Shown: one piece after another, positions 20,639 to 28,964 of the stretch
Position numbering within the stretch: position 1 is the first letter of the stretch
Layout: each line of letters opens with the position of its first letter
Assembly: GCF_009914755.1 (NCBI RefSeq)
Contig: NC_060930.1
Length of the DNA stretch: 64,000 nucleotides
Reading direction: 5' to 3' (one strand)
DNA from: the human T2T-CHM13v2.0 reference genome, Homo sapiens
The notes under the pieces: generated by a model
The model's input: the letters and a program-made list of their open reading frames with translations, nothing else
Databases searched by the model: none
What the model was told of the DNA's origin: nothing
Translations under genes and position numbers: made by a program

Positions 20639-23637
20639 ATCAAACCTTTGACCAGAATCCTCTAATCCTCTATCTATCTTAAAAAACAAATCTTAAAAAC
20701 AGGAAGTATCAGGCTCAGATAGGTTTACTGGAATTTTTTTTTTTTTGAGACAGAGTCTTGTTCTGTTGCTCAGACTGGAGTGCAGTGGCACAATCTTGGC
20801 TCGCTGCAACCTCTGCCTTCCAGGTTCAAGTGATCCTCCTGCCTCAGCCTCCTGAATAGCTGGGACTACAGGCACCTGCCACCACTCCTGGCTAATTTTT
20901 GTATTTTTATTTGAGACGGGGTTTTACCATGTTGGCCAGGCTGGTCTCGAACTACTGACCTCAGGTGATTGTCCAACCTCAGCCTCCCAAAGTGCTGGGA
21001 TTACAGGAGTAAGCCACTGCACCTGGCCTTACTGGAAAATTCTAGCAAACATTTAAGGAAGAAATTATACAAATTCTCTACAAACTCTTTCAGAAGACAG
21101 AGGCAGAGGAAATCCTTCTTAACTCATTCTATAAGGCCAGCATTATCCTAATATCAACAGCAGACACAAATGTTAGAAGAAAACTATAGACCAATATCTC
21201 CTATAAACACAGATACAAGAATCCTCAACAAAATATAAGCAAATTTAATCTTACTATGTATAAAAAGAATTATACATTATGAGCAAGTGGGATATAGCTC
21301 AGGTATGCAAAACTGGTTCAACATTTGAAAATCAATTAATGTAATCCGCCACATCAATAGGCTAAAAAAGAAAAATCACATGATCTCGTCAAGAGATGCA
21401 GAAAAAGCACTGATGAAATCGAACATCCATTCATGATAAAAACTCACCAAATTAGGAATAGAGGGGAACTTTCTCAACTTGATAAAGAACATCTGCAAAA
21501 AACCCTACAACTAACATCATACTCAATGGTGGGAAACTAGAAGCTTTCCCACAAAGACCAGGAACAAGCGAAGGAGGTTTTCTCTCACCACTTTCTTTCA
21601 ACATTGTACTGGAAGTCCTAGCTAATGCAATAAGAAAAGAAAATAAAAAGCATAAGATGGGGAGGGAAGAAATAAAATTATCTTTGTTTGAAGATAAAAT
21701 TATTATTTATGTAGAAAATCCAAAAGAATTGACAAAAAAAATCCTTCTGGGACTAATAAGCAATTATAGCAAGTTGCAGGATATAAAAATATTTATTTAT
21801 TTATTTTTATTTACTTTTTTGAGATGGAGTCTCCCTCTGTCACCCAGGCTGGAGTGCATCGGTGCGATCTCTGCTCACTGCAACCTCCGCCTCCCCAGTT
21901 CAAGCAATTCTCTCCCTCAGCCTCCTGAGTAGCTGGGATTATAGGCACCCACCACCATCCCTGGCTAATTTTTGTACTTTTAGTAGAGACAGGGTTTCAC
22001 TATGTTGGCCAGGCTGGTCTGGAGCTCCTGACCTCGTGATCCACCTGCCTCGGCCTCTGGAAGTGCTGGGATTATAGGCTTGAGCCACCACGCCCGGCCA
22101 TGAGCCACCACGCCCAGCCTATTTATTTATTTATTTATTGAGACAGGGTCTGCTCTTTCACCCAGGCTGGAGTGCAGTGGCGTGTTCTCAGCTTACTGCA
22201 ACCTCTGCCTCTGGAGTTCATGAGATTCTTGTGCCCCAGCCTCCTGAGTAGCTGAGATTACAGGCATGTGCCACCACACCTAGCCAATTTTTGTATTTTT
22301 AGTAGAGATGGGGTTTCACCATGTTGCCCAGGCTGGTCTCAAACTCCTGAGCTCAGGCAATCTGCCCACCTCAGCCTCCCAAAGTGCTGGGATTACAGGC
22401 CTGAGCCACTGTGCCCGGCCAAGGATATAAAGTTAATATACAAAAGTCAAAGCCAGGCACAGTAGCACACACCTGTAGTCCCAGCTACCCAAAAGGCTGA
22501 GGCAGGAGGATTGCTTGAGCCCAGAAGGTTGAGGTCAGCCTGGACAGCATAGTGAGACCCTATCTCTTTAAAAAAGTCAATCATGGCCGGGCACGGTGGC
22601 TTATGCCTGCAATCCCAGCACTTTGGGAGGCTGAGGCGGGCGGATCACCTGAGGTCAGGAGTTCGAGACCAACATGACCAACACTGAGAAACCCTGTCTC
22701 TACTAAAAATACAAAAATTAGCTGGGTGTGGTGGTGGGTGCCTGTAGTCCCAGCTGCTTGGGATGCTGAGGCAGGAGAATCGCTTGAGCCCGGGAGGCTG
22801 AGGTTGCAGTGAGCAGAGATTGTGCCATTGTACTTACTCCAGCCTGGGCAACAGAGTGAGACTCCATCTCAAAAAAAAAAAAAAGTTCATCATTTCCTAT
22901 ATACTAGCAATGAACAAGTGGAATTTGAAATGAAAAACACATTACCATGTACATTAGAACCCCTAAAATGAAATAAGTTTAAAACTAACAAAATATGTAC
23001 AAGGTCTATATGTGGAAAACTAGAAAACTCTGATGAAAGATATCAAAGCAGAACTCAATCAATAGAGAAGACTCAATGGTGTCAAAATGTCCATTCTTCC
23101 CAACCCGATTTAGAGATTCAAAGCAATCTCACTTAAAACCTCAGCAATTGATTTTGCAGGTAGTGACAAACTGATTGTAAAGTTTATATTGAGAGGCAAA
23201 AGACCCAGAGTAGCCAACATAATATTAAAGGAAAAGAACAAAGACAGAGGGCTGACACTACCTGACTTCAAGACTTAATATAAAGCAACAGTAATCACGA
23301 CAGTGTGGTATTGGCAAAAGACTCGACAAATAGATCAATGAAACAGAACTGAGCACCCAGGAATAGACCCATAGAAATACAGTCAACTGATCTTTGACAA
23401 AGGAGCAAAGGCAATACAATGAAGTGAAGATAGCCTTTTCAACAAATGGCGCTGGAACAACTGGACATCCACATGCAAAAAAAAAAAAAAAAAAGAATCT
23501 AGATACAGATCTTATGCTCTTCACTAAGGTCAACTAAAAATGGATCATAGACCTAAATGTAAAATACAAAACCATAAAACTCCTAAAAGATAGCACAGAT
23601 AAAAATCTAGATGACCTTGGGTAGAGTGATGACTTTT

Positions 23638-26600
23638 CATCACTCAGCTTTACTGAGGTATAATTGACAAATAAAAAGGTATATGTTGGCCGGGTGCAGT
23701 GGCTTACCCCAGTAATGCTAGCACTTTGGGAGGCCAAGGCAGGCTGATCACCTGAGGTCAGGAGTTCAAGACCAGCCTGGCCAACATGGCGAAACCCTGT
23801 CTGTACTAAAAATACAAAAATTAGCCGGGCATGGTGGCGGGCGCCTGTAATCCCAGCTACTCGGGAGGCTGAGGTAGGAAAATCGCTTGAGCCCAGGAGG
23901 TTGCACTGAGTCGAGATCGTGCCATTGCACTCCAACCTGGGCAACAGTGAGACTCTGTCTCAAAAAAAAAAAAAAAAGGTGTATGTTAGTGGTATATATA
24001 TAATGAAATTATTACTACTATCATGCTAATTAACATATCCATAACATATAGTTATAATTTTTTGTGGTAAAACCATTTCTGAGTTATACTCTTAGCAATT
24101 TTCAAGTATACAAATATCATCATTATTAACTATAATCACCATGTGGCCAGGTGAGGTGGCTCAAACCTGTAATCCCAGAACTTTGGGAGGCCAAGGCAGA
24201 CAGATTAGATTGCTTGAGCCTAGGAATTCAAGACCCGCCTGGGCAACATGGTGAAACCTCATTTCTACAAAAAATACAAAAATTAGCTGGGTATGGTGGT
24301 GCCTGCCTGTGGTCCCAGCTAGGAAGCTGCGGGAAGCTCAGGTAGGAGGATCGCTTGAGCCTGGGAGGTTAAGGCTATATGAGCTGAGATCACACCACTG
24401 TACTCCAGCCTGGGTAACAAAGTGAGACTCTGTCTCAAAAAATAAAAATTAAAAATAAGCAAACCACCATGCTGTACAATAGATCTCTGAATCTATTTAT
24501 CCTATCAAACTGAAACTGTACCCTTTGACCAACATTCCCCATTCTCCCCTCCCACCAATCCCCTGGCAACCACCATTCCACTCTCTACTCCCAAGAGTTT
24601 GACTTTTTAAAATTTCACATATAAGTGAATTATGAAATATTGATTTTTCTGTGCCTGACATTTCATTTAGCATAATGTCCTCAATATTCATCCATATTAT
24701 CACAAATGGCAGGATTTCTTTCTTTTTTAAGGCTGAATATTATTCCATTGCATATATAAATCACATTTTCTTTATTGATCATTCAATGGATATTTAGGTT
24801 GATTGTATATCTTGGCAATTGGGAATAACACTGCTATGAACATAGAGGTACAAATATCTCTTGGACATACGGATTTGATTTCCTTTGGATATACACCCAG
24901 AAGTTGGAGTGCTGGATCATATGGTAGTTCTGTTTTTTTGTTTGTTTGTTTGTTTGAGACGCAGTTTCGCTCTTGTTGCCCAGGCTGGAGTGCAACGGCA
25001 CAATCTCTGCTCACTGCAACCTCCGCCCCCCAGGTTCAAGTGATTCTCCTGTCTCAGCCTCCTGAGTAGCTGGGATTACAGGCGCCTGCCACTACACCCG
25101 GCTAATTTTTTGTATTTTTAGTAGAGATGGGGTTTCACCATGTTGGCCAGGCTGGTCTCGAACTCCTGACCTCAGGTGATACACCTGCCTCGGCCTCCCA
25201 AAGTGTTGGGATTACAGGCATGAGCCACCACTCTCGGCGGGTAGTTGCTGTTTTTAAGTTTTCAAGGAATCACCATACTTTCCTTTATAGTAGCTATACT
25301 AATTTACATTCCCACCAACGGGACTGTGTGCAAGCATTCCCTTTTCTCCACACCCTTGTCAATGTTTATCTTTTGTCTGTTTGATAGTAGCCATTCTAAC
25401 AGGTGTGAGGCAATACCTCATTGTGATGTTAATTTGCATTTCTCTGATGATTAATGATGTTAAGTACCTTTTCATGCACAGATCAGCCATGCACATACCT
25501 TCTTTTGAGAAAGGTCTATTAAAGTCTTTTACTCATATTGTTTTTCTCTTCCTCTCTCAACTGACCTTTGCTCATTTTTTAATCAGGTTATTTGTTTTCT
25601 TGCTATTGAGTTACATAAGTTCCTTATATATTTTGAATATTAATTTCCTATGAAATGTGTGGTTTGCAAATATTTTCTCACATTCTGTAGGTTGTCTCTT
25701 CACTCTGTTGATTGTTTTCTTTGCTATACAGAGTTTTAGTTTGATGCAATCCCATTTATCCATTTTTGCTTTTGTTGCCTGTCCTATGTCATTATGGGGC
25801 CATATCCAAAAAAATCTTTGCCCAGGCCAATGTCAAGAAGCTTTCTCCCTAAGTTTTCTTCCAGTAGTTTTACAGTTTCAGGTCTCAGTTCAAGTCTTTT
25901 TTTTTTTTTTTTTTTTTTTTGAGATGGAGTTTCGTTCTTGTTGCCCAGGCTGGAGTGCAATGGCTTGATCTCAGCTCACTGCAACCTCCGCCTCCCGGGT
26001 CCAAGAGATTCTCCTACCTCAGCCTTCCGAGCAGCTGGAATTACAGGTGTCCACCACCACACCTGGCTAATTTTGTGTATTTTTAATAGAGACGGGGTTT
26101 CACCATGTTGGCCAGGCTGGTCTCGGACTCCTGACCTTAGGTAATCCACCCGCCTCGGCCTCCCAGAGTGCTGGGATTACAGGCGTGAGCCACCATGCCT
26201 GGCCAGTTTAAGTCTTTAATCTATTTTGAGGTGGTCTAAGATAAAGGTCCGATTTCATTCTTCTGCATGTGGATATGCAGTTTTCCCAAAACCATTTATT
26301 GAAGAGATTGTCCTATCCCCAGTGTGCATACATGCCACCTCTGTTTAAGATCAATTGACCATAAATGTGTGGACTTATTTCTGGGTTCCCTATTCTGATC
26401 CGTTGGTCTATATGTCTATTGTTATGCCAGTACCATGCTATTTTGATTGCTATAGCTTTACAGTATATTTGGAATTTAGGTAGTGAGATGCCTCCAGCTT
26501 TGTTCTTTTTGCTCAAGATTGTTTTGGCTATTCATGATCTTTTGTGGTTTCATATGAATTTCAGGATTGTTTTTTCTATTTCTGTAAAAAATGTCATCAG

Positions 26601-28600: not shown

Positions 28601-28964
28601 ATTAAAACAGTATTTCTCATTCTTACAGCCGCTCACCATCTTCTCTCAATCCTGATAGCCACTGCTGCCTAAATAACTACCCCATTTTTGAATAGTTATT
28701 ACAATTCTTTTAAGTGCCTAATGTATGCCTGAACATGTCAATATCCTGTAAACCAGCTCTGAATTTTAACTGCTGGATCATTTTCCTTTTTTTCTAAATG
28801 TATTCACAATACTGTTCCTAAAGGAGTACGGATTTCCTACAACTGATGGCCAGCCTTGCAGCTGGGCTAACATGGCCATGGCCTCTTGGCCTCATGGGGG
28901 ATGGCTTTTTAGATATAATGCCAAAGGCATGATTTATGAAAAAATAATTGATAAGCTGAACTTC

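What the first reader, a model, noticed from the sequence alone, without database searches (positions are those of the whole stretch)
23624..28909. SPATA17 mRNA-L1MA chimeric retrocopy inserted as one unit
Seen: on the minus strand a spliced SPATA17 copy runs from a short 5' UTR and the ATG (28879) to the codons ...IRDK. It then switches with no poly(A) into same-sense L1 ORF2 sequence (junction GTGACAAGGAACAAGACAAGGATGCCC, with AGGA at 27115-27118 shared). It continues to an L1MA 3' end at ~23640. The whole 5.3 kb is bracketed by one degenerate TSD (gtgatgactttt 23626-23637 / gggatggctttt 28898-28909). The site is an L1-endonuclease-like TTTTT/AG, and the host L1MC resumes seamlessly. The last ~26 SPATA17 codons and the 3' UTR are absent. 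Inference: either L1 RT switched template from L1 RNA to a testis mRNA, or an ancestral SPATA17 transcript spliced from an exon ending GACAAG into a cryptic CAG|GAAC acceptor in an intronic sense L1, used its poly(A), and was then retrotransposed. The second case would be a fossil of an L1-trapped isoform. Standard annotation would show the pseudogene and the L1 as unrelated.
Basis: partly seen in the sequence, partly recalled or inferred. Interest (0 to 1): 0.82.

Follow-up and report, generated by a model that had tools for sequence, protein, structure and literature searches.

The report
Retrocopy of an L1-terminated SPATA17 transcript
This is a dead retrocopy of an old SPATA17 messenger RNA that was spliced from its second-to-last exon into an L1 fragment lying in the next intron, so it preserves an extinct or rare isoform; the kind is already described, and this case is simply a very clear one.

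Summary
On the minus strand, 28897-27117 is a spliced, decayed copy of SPATA17 (parent on chr1). 27116-23638 is same-sense L1, and one 12-14 nt target-site duplication brackets both (28910-28898 / 23637-23626).

The SPATA17 part stops exactly at a parent exon end (GACAAG|GTGAGT, chr1:217042651). A sense, 5'-truncated L1 with its own TSD lies 1,041 nt downstream in that 60.9-kb last intron. It begins AG|GAAC, and the chr6 L1 part begins at that GAAC. So an L1-terminated SPATA17 transcript was retrotransposed as one RNA.

Both halves are similarly diverged. The canonical last exon (26 codons) is not in the window.

Caveats:
- L1-to-L1 sequence kinship is only weakly diagnostic. The tree pairs the two copies, but private shared substitutions are at background.
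- No poly(A) tail is visible.
- Cross-species dating could not be run.

Also found: a 195-nt internal duplication made after insertion, a 62-nt deletion, and six Alus.

The class is in print (Law & Burns, RAP1GDS1/L1PA2). SPATA17 is not in that paper's main text or held supplements. Verdict: new member of a known kind.

The parts
28898..28910 (-). 5' copy of the target-site duplication (aaaaagccatccc) in the host L1-like repeat
28814..28897 (-). SPATA17 exon 1 copy: about 18 nt of 5' UTR, ATG at 28879-28877, ends ...aggaacag
   Evidence: Aligned to chr1 exon 1 ending at C1:216872460|GT
28720..28813 (-). SPATA17 exon 2 copy (parent C1:216889890-216889979)
   Evidence: 81.8% identity
28648..28719 (-). 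Exon 3 (part), then the end of exon 4 and the start of exon 5. A 62-nt deletion spans the exon 3/4 join.
28303..28607 (+). Alu inserted later into the SPATA17 part
28081..28239 (-). Exon copies matching C1:216983054-177 and the first part of C1:217015123-326
27761..28080 (-). Later Alu followed by (CA)n and (GA)n, splitting the exon copy
27394..27760 (-). Exon copies matching C1:217015150-326, C1:217022957-217023104, and the first 53 nt of the donor exon C1:217042519-651
27199..27393 (-). Secondary 195-nt duplicate of the exon 2-5 stretch at 28776-28648. It was made after insertion and sits inside the donor-exon copy.
   Evidence: 92% identity; shared +3 and -3 indels and an in-frame TGA relative to the parent
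27117..27198 (-). Last 80 nt of the donor exon copy, ending ...gtgacaag at 27117 (= C1:217042651, exon end before GTGAGT)
23638..27116 (-). L1 part: 2,216 nt net of Alus. It starts gaacaagacaagg, equivalent to C1:217043693, and is collinear with the intronic L1 at C1:217043691-217046752.
25887..26204 (-). Later Alu in the L1 part
24928..25238 (-). Later Alu in the L1 part
24150..24460 (+). Later Alu in the L1 part
23688..23977 (+). Later Alu in the L1 part
23649..23654 (-). AGTAAA poly(A) signal of the L1 3' end. It is shared with the chr1 L1 and with many copies of this L1 sublineage.
23626..23637 (-). 3' copy of the target-site duplication (aaaagtcatcac). The host repeat resumes here.

Best explanation
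This is a processed pseudogene of an L1-terminated SPATA17 isoform.

At the SPATA17 locus on chr1, a 5'-truncated sense L1 fragment had inserted 1,041 nt into the 60.9-kb last intron. In germline cells some SPATA17 pre-mRNA was spliced from the donor of the second-to-last coding exon (GACAAG|GTGAGT) to the AG formed by the first two bases of that L1 fragment (AG|GAAC). The transcript ran through the L1 fragment and was cleaved at the L1's own AGTAAA signal.

That complete mRNA (5' UTR, all coding exons but the last, then about 2.2 kb of L1) was copied in trans by the L1 machinery into a CTTTTT/AG site in an older L1-like repeat, inside what is now a CCND3 intron on chr6. This made one 12-14 nt TSD.

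Later events were six Alu insertions, a microsatellite, a 195-nt local duplication and a 62-nt deletion.

What is shown and what is inferred:
- Shown: the anatomy at both loci.
- Inferred: the RNA intermediate.
- Inferred, and not shown: germline expression at the time of the event, and any present-day use of the isoform.
For: (a) Exon-end junction. The SPATA17 part ends at 27117, which equals C1:217042651, the last base of an exon followed by GTGAGT.

(b) L1 in the right place. The next 200 kb of chr1 was fetched and compared. A plus-strand L1 lies at C1:217043691-217046752 and is collinear with window 27116-23638 in seven HSPs.

(c) Matching L1 start. That L1 starts AGGAACATGACAAGG straight after its own roughly 9-nt TSD. 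Three uninterrupted copies of its host repeat show the empty site. The chr6 L1 part starts at the GAAC two bases in. The RNA joint GACAAG|GAAC is therefore what this donor and this AG would give.

(d) It is the last intron. The canonical last exon (26 codons and a stop) starts at C1:217103574.

(e) One insertion. A single TSD surrounds both halves, and the host repeat is continuous in three intact family copies.

(f) Similar age of both halves.
- SPATA17 half: K2P 0.199 to the modern exons over 747 nt.
- L1 half: tree path 0.28 to the chr1 L1, with end branches 0.145 and 0.134.
- This fits one neutral branch plus a slowly evolving exon branch against two neutral branches.

(g) L1 kinship.
- In a tree with 9 other L1 copies the two are sisters (95/97).
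- Each is the other's best match (78.7% over 1,935 columns; the others 74.0-78.1%).
- They share a 2-nt deletion absent from the 7 other rows that cover it.

(h) No shared Alus. None of the six Alus in the chr6 unit and neither of the two in the chr1 L1 is shared. This is as expected if all were inserted after the copy was made.

(i) Single retrocopy. Searches with three SPATA17 stretches found only this chr6 locus and the chr1 exons.
Against: L1-to-L1 kinship is weak as proof of descent.
- Substitutions private to the pair number 7. The retrocopy shares 0-11 with each of the nine other copies, and the highest for any pair in the set is 12.
- With a looser rule the pair scores 14 of 1,302 columns, against 2-19 for the other rows.
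- The shared 2-nt deletion is a sublineage marker, with 122 genome matches at up to 3 mismatches (10 in the reversed control).
- The shared 3' end is also a sublineage marker, with 1,438 matches.
- The three comparators whose 3' ends are visible end differently. The nine comparators may therefore belong to another sublineage, and the 95/97 support may reflect that alone.
- A genome-wide search with 879 nt of the L1 part scored only 40 of 16,996 candidates, and the chr1 copy was not among them.

Other points:
- No poly(A) tail is visible between the L1 end and the TSD. The TSD itself begins with A4-5.
- The stretch upstream of the chr1 AG is not pyrimidine-rich.
- The chr1 L1 carries a 232-nt patch absent from chr6. 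It is explained as a later local duplication: 91% and 86% identical to the chr1 L1's own segments, against 81-83% to the chr6 copy.
- Whether both halves appear on one branch of the mammalian tree could not be tested.
Confidence: 0.9

Rival explanations
1. Template switching during target-primed reverse transcription. The L1 reverse transcriptase began on an L1 RNA. At the AGGA microhomology it jumped to a SPATA17 mRNA and copied it to its 5' end.
For: A single TSD brackets both halves. Four bases (AGGA) are shared at the joint. Chimeras of this general kind are described in print (listing and abstracts; figure 7 legend of Law & Burns).
Against: This model gives no reason for the jump to land exactly on an exon end followed by GTGAGT. 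It also gives no reason for the L1 part to begin two bases inside the 5' end of an L1 lying 1,041 nt downstream of that very exon in sense orientation. My rough estimate, not a computation: about 10 exon ends in about 1.1 kb of mRNA, times a few bases in about 6 kb of L1, gives a joint chance near 1e-5.
Confidence: 0.03
2. Trans-splicing. The SPATA17 donor was joined to the same AG|GAAC acceptor in an L1 RNA transcribed from a different locus. This is the mechanism Law & Burns propose for most of their mRNA/LINE-1 chimeras.
For: The junction is at a donor. In longer L1 copies the bases before GAAC would also offer an AG. Substitution data do not single out the chr1 copy as the source. Law & Burns report that 15 of their 17 gene loci lack an intronic LINE-1 (passages seen).
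Against: Here an intronic sense L1 of the same sublineage does exist. It starts at exactly that AG and lies 1 kb from the donor. Under trans-splicing that would be a coincidence.
Confidence: 0.04
3. Two independent insertions, a SPATA17 retrocopy and an L1, lay side by side. A later deletion removed the retrocopy's 3' end and the L1's 5' end and so fused them.
For: The locus did undergo later rearrangements: a 195-nt duplication and a 62-nt deletion.
Against: There is one TSD for the whole unit and no inner TSD or poly(A). The deletion would have had to end exactly at an exon end on one side and at the chr1 L1's start on the other.
Confidence: 0.02

Closest known systems
Cis-spliced gene-exon/intronic LINE-1 chimeric insertions: RAP1GDS1/L1PA2, in Law & Burns, bioRxiv 2025 (10.1101/2025.02.02.635956) and Cell Genomics 2026 (PMC13174262). 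I saw the abstract, the passages of sections 24, 25 and 32, and term searches of 4 supplement files.
   Same: The upstream exons end exactly at a splice donor. The L1 part begins at an acceptor at or beside an L1 lying in the next intron in sense orientation. One TSD and an endonuclease-type target site surround the whole unit. The intron after the last included exon is long: 60.9 kb here, against their median of 48 kb.
   Different: Their cases carry the first two or three exons joined to near-full-length young L1PA elements, which may drive their own retrotransposition. Here nearly the whole coding mRNA (all coding exons but the last) is joined to a 2.2-kb coding-dead 3' fragment of a much older L1, so the RNA must have been copied in trans like any processed pseudogene. 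SPATA17 has 0 occurrences in their main text and in the 4 held supplement files. Some supplement cells were cut in storage.
Template-switch or RNA-ligation chimeric retrocopies (U6/L1 and related). I saw listings and abstracts and passages of Law & Burns. The original papers by Buzdin and colleagues are recalled, not read here.
   Same: A bipartite insertion with a cellular RNA at the 5' side and a 5'-truncated L1 at the 3' side, in the same sense, inside one TSD.
   Different: Those joints are unrelated to splice sites, and the two RNAs come from separate loci. Here the joint is donor-to-acceptor and both parts lie 1 kb apart at one locus.
Processed pseudogenes as records of splice variants (Shemesh et al., PNAS 2006). 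I saw only the entry in the reference list of PMC5470649. The paper is not held, so its content is recalled.
   Same: A retrocopy preserves an isoform that differs from the reference transcript.
   Different: Here the variant is an alternative terminal exon made from an intronic L1 fragment, and its genomic source can be pinpointed to the base.
Premature polyadenylation and cryptic splicing caused by sense intronic L1. This is recalled from work of Belancio, Deininger, Han and Boeke. None of it was read here.
   Same: A sense L1 in an intron supplies an acceptor and a poly(A) signal that truncate the host transcript.
   Different: That literature rests on transcripts and reporters. This is a genomic fossil of such a transcript.

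Membership tests
L1-mediated processed retrocopy (target-primed reverse transcription) | Intronless copy with exact exon-exon joins of a multi-exon parent | tested here: met
   Nine parent exons or exon parts on chr1 were mapped, and the located joins are exact. One or more exons between C1:216910094 and C1:216983052 were not located because the region was not fetched.
L1-mediated processed retrocopy (target-primed reverse transcription) | Target-site duplication flanking the whole insert, with an intact empty site in related copies | tested here: met
   12-14 nt TSD, with 10 of 12 positions identical. Three uninterrupted host-family copies read through the site.
L1-mediated processed retrocopy (target-primed reverse transcription) | Endonuclease-type target (T-run / purines on the primed strand) | tested here: met
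   CTTTTT/AG is read. The consensus TTTT/AA is recalled. Supplement rows seen list motifs such as TT/AAAA.
L1-mediated processed retrocopy (target-primed reverse transcription) | Poly(A) tail at the 3' end | tested here: inconclusive
   There is no A-run beyond the A4-5 that opens the TSD. It may have been lost or merged with the TSD.
Cis-spliced gene-exon / intronic LINE-1 chimeric insertion | The gene part ends exactly at a splice donor | tested here: met
   27117 equals C1:217042651, followed by GTGAGT
Cis-spliced gene-exon / intronic LINE-1 chimeric insertion | A sense L1 lies in the intron downstream of that donor, with an AG directly before the base where the chimera's L1 part starts | tested here: met
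   The L1 at C1:217043691-217046752 is on the plus strand. AG is at 217043691-92 and GAAC starts at 217043693.
Cis-spliced gene-exon / intronic LINE-1 chimeric insertion | The chimera's L1 part descends from that intronic copy (closest relative, private shared changes) | tested here: inconclusive
   The two are sisters at 95/97 and are each other's best identity. However, private shared substitutions are at background (7; the retrocopy shares 0-11 with the other copies), and the shared deletion and 3' end are sublineage markers.
Cis-spliced gene-exon / intronic LINE-1 chimeric insertion | Both parts arrive on the same branch in multi-species alignments, after the intronic L1 | not testable with these tools
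   No other mammalian genome is held.
Template-switch chimeric retrocopy | The joint is unrelated to splice sites, and the two RNAs come from separate loci | tested here: not met
   The joint is donor-to-acceptor, and both parts lie 1,041 nt apart on chr1.
SPATA17 (parent gene identity) | Translated parent exons match a chain deposited under that name | tested here: met
   9ijj_3B, 'Spermatogenesis-associated protein 17': E 5.8e-25 (residues 190-258) and E 2.1e-11 (residues 309-353)
L1MA (insert) / L1MC (host) family names | Match to the named repeat consensus | not tested
   No repeat library was on hand. Only 'L1 ORF2, sense' was shown for the insert. The host was shown only to belong to an abundant repeat family, with 2,555 first-look candidates.

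The most novel reading that the evidence does not exclude
The L1-terminated SPATA17 isoform may not be only a fossil. The chr1 locus still has the donor, the AG at the L1 start and the AGTAAA signal. Human testis may therefore still make a low level of this transcript. It would replace the last 26 residues of a sperm-flagellum protein with a short L1-derived (now partly Alu-derived) tail, or it would act as a decoy that lowers full-length output.
Probability: 0.2. Interest if true: 0.4.

Novelty: new member of a known kind. Interest (0 to 1): 0.35.

Why it matters
This case is unusually clean. The source of an mRNA/L1 chimera can be fixed to the base, so cis-splicing can be told apart from reverse-transcriptase template switching and from trans-splicing. 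For most published mRNA/L1 chimeras that question is left open.

It shows that an intronic L1 fragment trapped SPATA17 transcripts in the germline. By my rough reckoning from the branch lengths this was tens of millions of years ago.

It is also an example that annotation would split into an unrelated 'pseudogene' and 'L1'. It does not change what is known about retrotransposition.

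Tried and rejected
Pfam on five minus-strand ORFs gave nothing above any cut-off. The best hit was E 0.0037, for an unrelated family. 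The PDB sequence search was used instead.

Exon 1 was missed by two DNA searches, one protein search and a blind 10-kb fetch. It was then found with a 19-nt degenerate pattern.

I first read the 97% identity of the last 32 nt and the shared AGTAAA as private marks of descent. I rejected this once one search showed 1,438 genome matches.

I first read the shared 2-nt deletion as a private frameshift. I rejected this once one search showed 122 matches.

I considered that the internal duplicate (27393-27199) was a second reverse-transcriptase jump or an exon-repeat isoform. I rejected this because both copies share changes absent from the parent: a +3 indel, a -3 indel and an in-frame TGA.

I considered that the 62-nt gap in the first copy was exon skipping. 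I rejected this because it straddles the exon 3/4 join.

Full report
**What is in the window**

Read on the minus strand, the region begins with host repeat sequence ending ...tatatctaaaaagccatccc. About 18 nt of 5' UTR follow, then an ATG at 28879.

Genome searches with three stretches of the following sequence matched only this chr6 locus and a series of short plus-strand pieces on chr1 between 216.87 and 217.04 Mb. Local BLAST and inspection of those pieces show canonical AG/GT borders, and the window carries them joined exactly.

Exon 1 was missed by sequence searches. A 19-nt degenerate pattern found it at C1:216872460|GT, and the retrocopy aligns with it from about 18 nt before the ATG.

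The parent gene is named by a tool. Translations of two chr1 exons hit PDB chain 9ijj_3B, 'Spermatogenesis-associated protein 17', at E 5.8e-25 and 2.1e-11. Over 747 aligned nt the retrocopy is 83.0% identical to the modern exons (K2P 0.199, 21 gap columns).

**The junction**

The SPATA17 part ends ...gtgacaag at 27117. On chr1 that is the last base of exon C1:217042519-217042651, and GTGAGT follows.

In the PDB chain this exon covers residues 309-353 of 379, so 26 residues are missing. The canonical last exon (26 codons and a stop) starts at C1:217103574, which makes the last intron 60,922 nt long. Its first 335 nt have no credible match anywhere in the 64-kb window. The best is E 0.017 over 33 nt, at 47410 on the other strand. 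The missing end therefore does not lie beyond the L1.

**The L1 half**

From 27116 the sequence is L1 in the same sense. The minus-strand ORF 26313-26531 matches human ORF2p residues 856-927 (E 4e-19). Pfam gave nothing on five ORFs. Net of four Alus this half is about 2.2 kb. It ends ...tttgtcaattatacctcagtaaagctg.

**The source locus**

I fetched 200 kb downstream of the donor exon and compared it with the whole unit. A plus-strand L1 at C1:217043691-217046752 is collinear with window 27116-23638 in seven HSPs. Two Alus and a 232-nt patch on the chr1 side interrupt the alignment.

Its 5' end reads ...CTAAATCAT|AGGAACATGACAAGG. Three uninterrupted copies of the repeat that hosts it show that the L1 begins at that AG and has its own TSD of about 9 nt. 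The chr6 L1 part begins gaacaagacaagg, two bases inside.

Splicing the donor GACAAG|GT to this AG| removes 1,041 nt and gives GACAAG|GAAC, which is exactly what chr6 carries. Two independent breakpoints therefore each coincide to the base with a splice signal at one and the same locus. Neither template switching nor a later fusing deletion gives any reason for this.

**One insertion**

The flanks carry aaaaagccatccc (28910-28898) and aaaagtcatcac (23637-23626).

A search with the 3' flank found 39 non-self matches among 40 scored of 2,555 candidates. Of these, 24 start exactly at 23637, 4 start two bases earlier, and none starts at the first query base. Three intact copies of that host family read TATATCTAAAAAGTCAxCxC...CCCAAGGTCATC straight across the site.

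The primed strand reads CTTTTT/AG. No inner TSD or inner poly(A) was seen.

**Kinship of the two L1 copies: what supports it and what does not**

A maximum-likelihood tree was built from the Alu-free chr6 L1 part, the chr1 L1 and nine other L1 copies (the nine best non-self hits). It uses 2,048 kept columns. The first two come out as sisters with 95/97 support, an inner branch of 0.018 and end branches of 0.145 and 0.134. Each is the other's best match: 78.7% over 1,935 columns, against 74.0-78.1% for the others.

Simple counts do not single out the pair.
- Substitutions private to the pair number 7. The retrocopy shares 0-11 with each of the nine other copies, and the highest for any pair in the set is 12.
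- With a looser rule the pair scores 14 of 1,302 columns, against 2-19 for the others.

The only shared indel is a 2-nt deletion, absent from the 7 other rows that cover the site. That variant has 122 genome matches at up to 3 mismatches, against 10 for the reversed control. The shared 3' end has 1,438 matches. Both are therefore sublineage marks.

The three comparators whose ends are visible end differently, so the comparators may belong to another sublineage.

The genome-wide search scored only 40 of 16,996 candidates, the best at 78%, and the chr1 copy was not among them.

My reading is that the two copies belong to the same minor L1 lineage and that little time passed between the L1's arrival in the intron and the retrocopy. 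The sequence data are compatible with descent but do not prove it. The case rests on the anatomy.

**Age**

The end branches of about 0.14 and the K2P of 0.199 to constrained exons fit a single age for both halves. None of the eight Alus at the two loci is shared. By my own rough reckoning from a recalled neutral rate, this means tens of millions of years. No cross-species test was possible.

**Later events**

Window 27393-27199 is a 195-nt duplicate of 28776-28648 (exon 2 to the start of exon 5), lying inside the donor-exon copy. Both copies share changes that the parent lacks: a +3 indel, a -3 indel and an in-frame TGA. The duplication therefore happened in the pseudogene and not during reverse transcription.

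Site counts were taken over all columns where all three sequences have a base, including some misaligned ends:

| Pattern | Columns |
|---|---|
| All three the same | 94 |
| Both copies agree, parent differs | 18 |
| Only copy 2 differs | 13 |
| Only copy 1 differs | 13 |
| All three differ | 6 |

The first copy later lost 62 nt across the exon 3/4 join.

The chr1 L1 shows a parallel oddity. A 232-nt patch in its 3' region is made of two of its own upstream segments (91% and 86% identity).

**Comparison with what is known**

Law & Burns (bioRxiv 2025; Cell Genomics 2026) catalogue 17 mRNA or lncRNA/LINE-1 chimeras. Six end at splice donors. They argue for trans-splicing in most cases, and they document cis-splicing from an intronic L1PA2 in RAP1GDS1 (passages seen, abstract).

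SPATA17 does not occur in their main text or in the four held supplement files, though some cells were cut in storage. A search for SPATA17 together with 'pseudogene' gave 9 papers, none of which is about this locus judging by title and abstract.

This is therefore a new member of a known kind. It differs in carrying almost the whole coding mRNA joined to a dead 3' fragment of an old L1.

**Verdict**

- Observation: confirmed.
- Template switching: disfavoured.
- Interest: moderate to low.

Noticed in passing
window 27199-27393 (source 28648-28776): A 195-nt same-orientation duplicate of the exon 2-5 stretch sits about 1.3 kb downstream, inside the donor-exon copy. It is 92% identical to the first copy, and both share pseudogene-specific indels and a stop codon. 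The junctions show only 1-2 nt of shared bases, which looks like a templated insertion during break repair.
   Followed up: partly
window about 28664/28665: A 62-nt deletion in the first copy spans the exon 3/4 join and has CAG at both edges. The later duplicate still has these 62 nt, so the deletion is younger than the duplication.
   Followed up: partly
L019:4467-4698 (C1:217046467-217046698): A 232-nt patch in the 3' region of the chr1 intronic L1 is built from two of that L1's own upstream segments in swapped order (91% and 86% identity). It is absent from the chr6 copy. This is the same kind of local templated insertion as in the chr6 unit.
   Followed up: partly
window 23626-23643: The 3' junction reads gtgatgaaaagtcatcac, a perfect 7-nt inverted repeat around aaag, formed by the L1 end and the TSD. 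It may be chance. It may bear on the missing poly(A) tail.
   Followed up: no
window 27761-27829: (CA)n followed by (GA)n sits directly after an Alu tail inside the retrocopy.
   Followed up: no
window 23626-28910: The whole unit lies on the minus strand inside a long CCND3 intron, in the same orientation as CCND3 according to the hub's gene table. Whether any of it is exonised in CCND3 transcripts was not examined.
   Followed up: no
genome-wide: Many 1-mismatch matches to the 2-nt-deleted L1 variant lie on contigs 13, 14, 15, 20, 21 and 22. This may reflect one L1 copy carried within large duplicated blocks.
   Followed up: no
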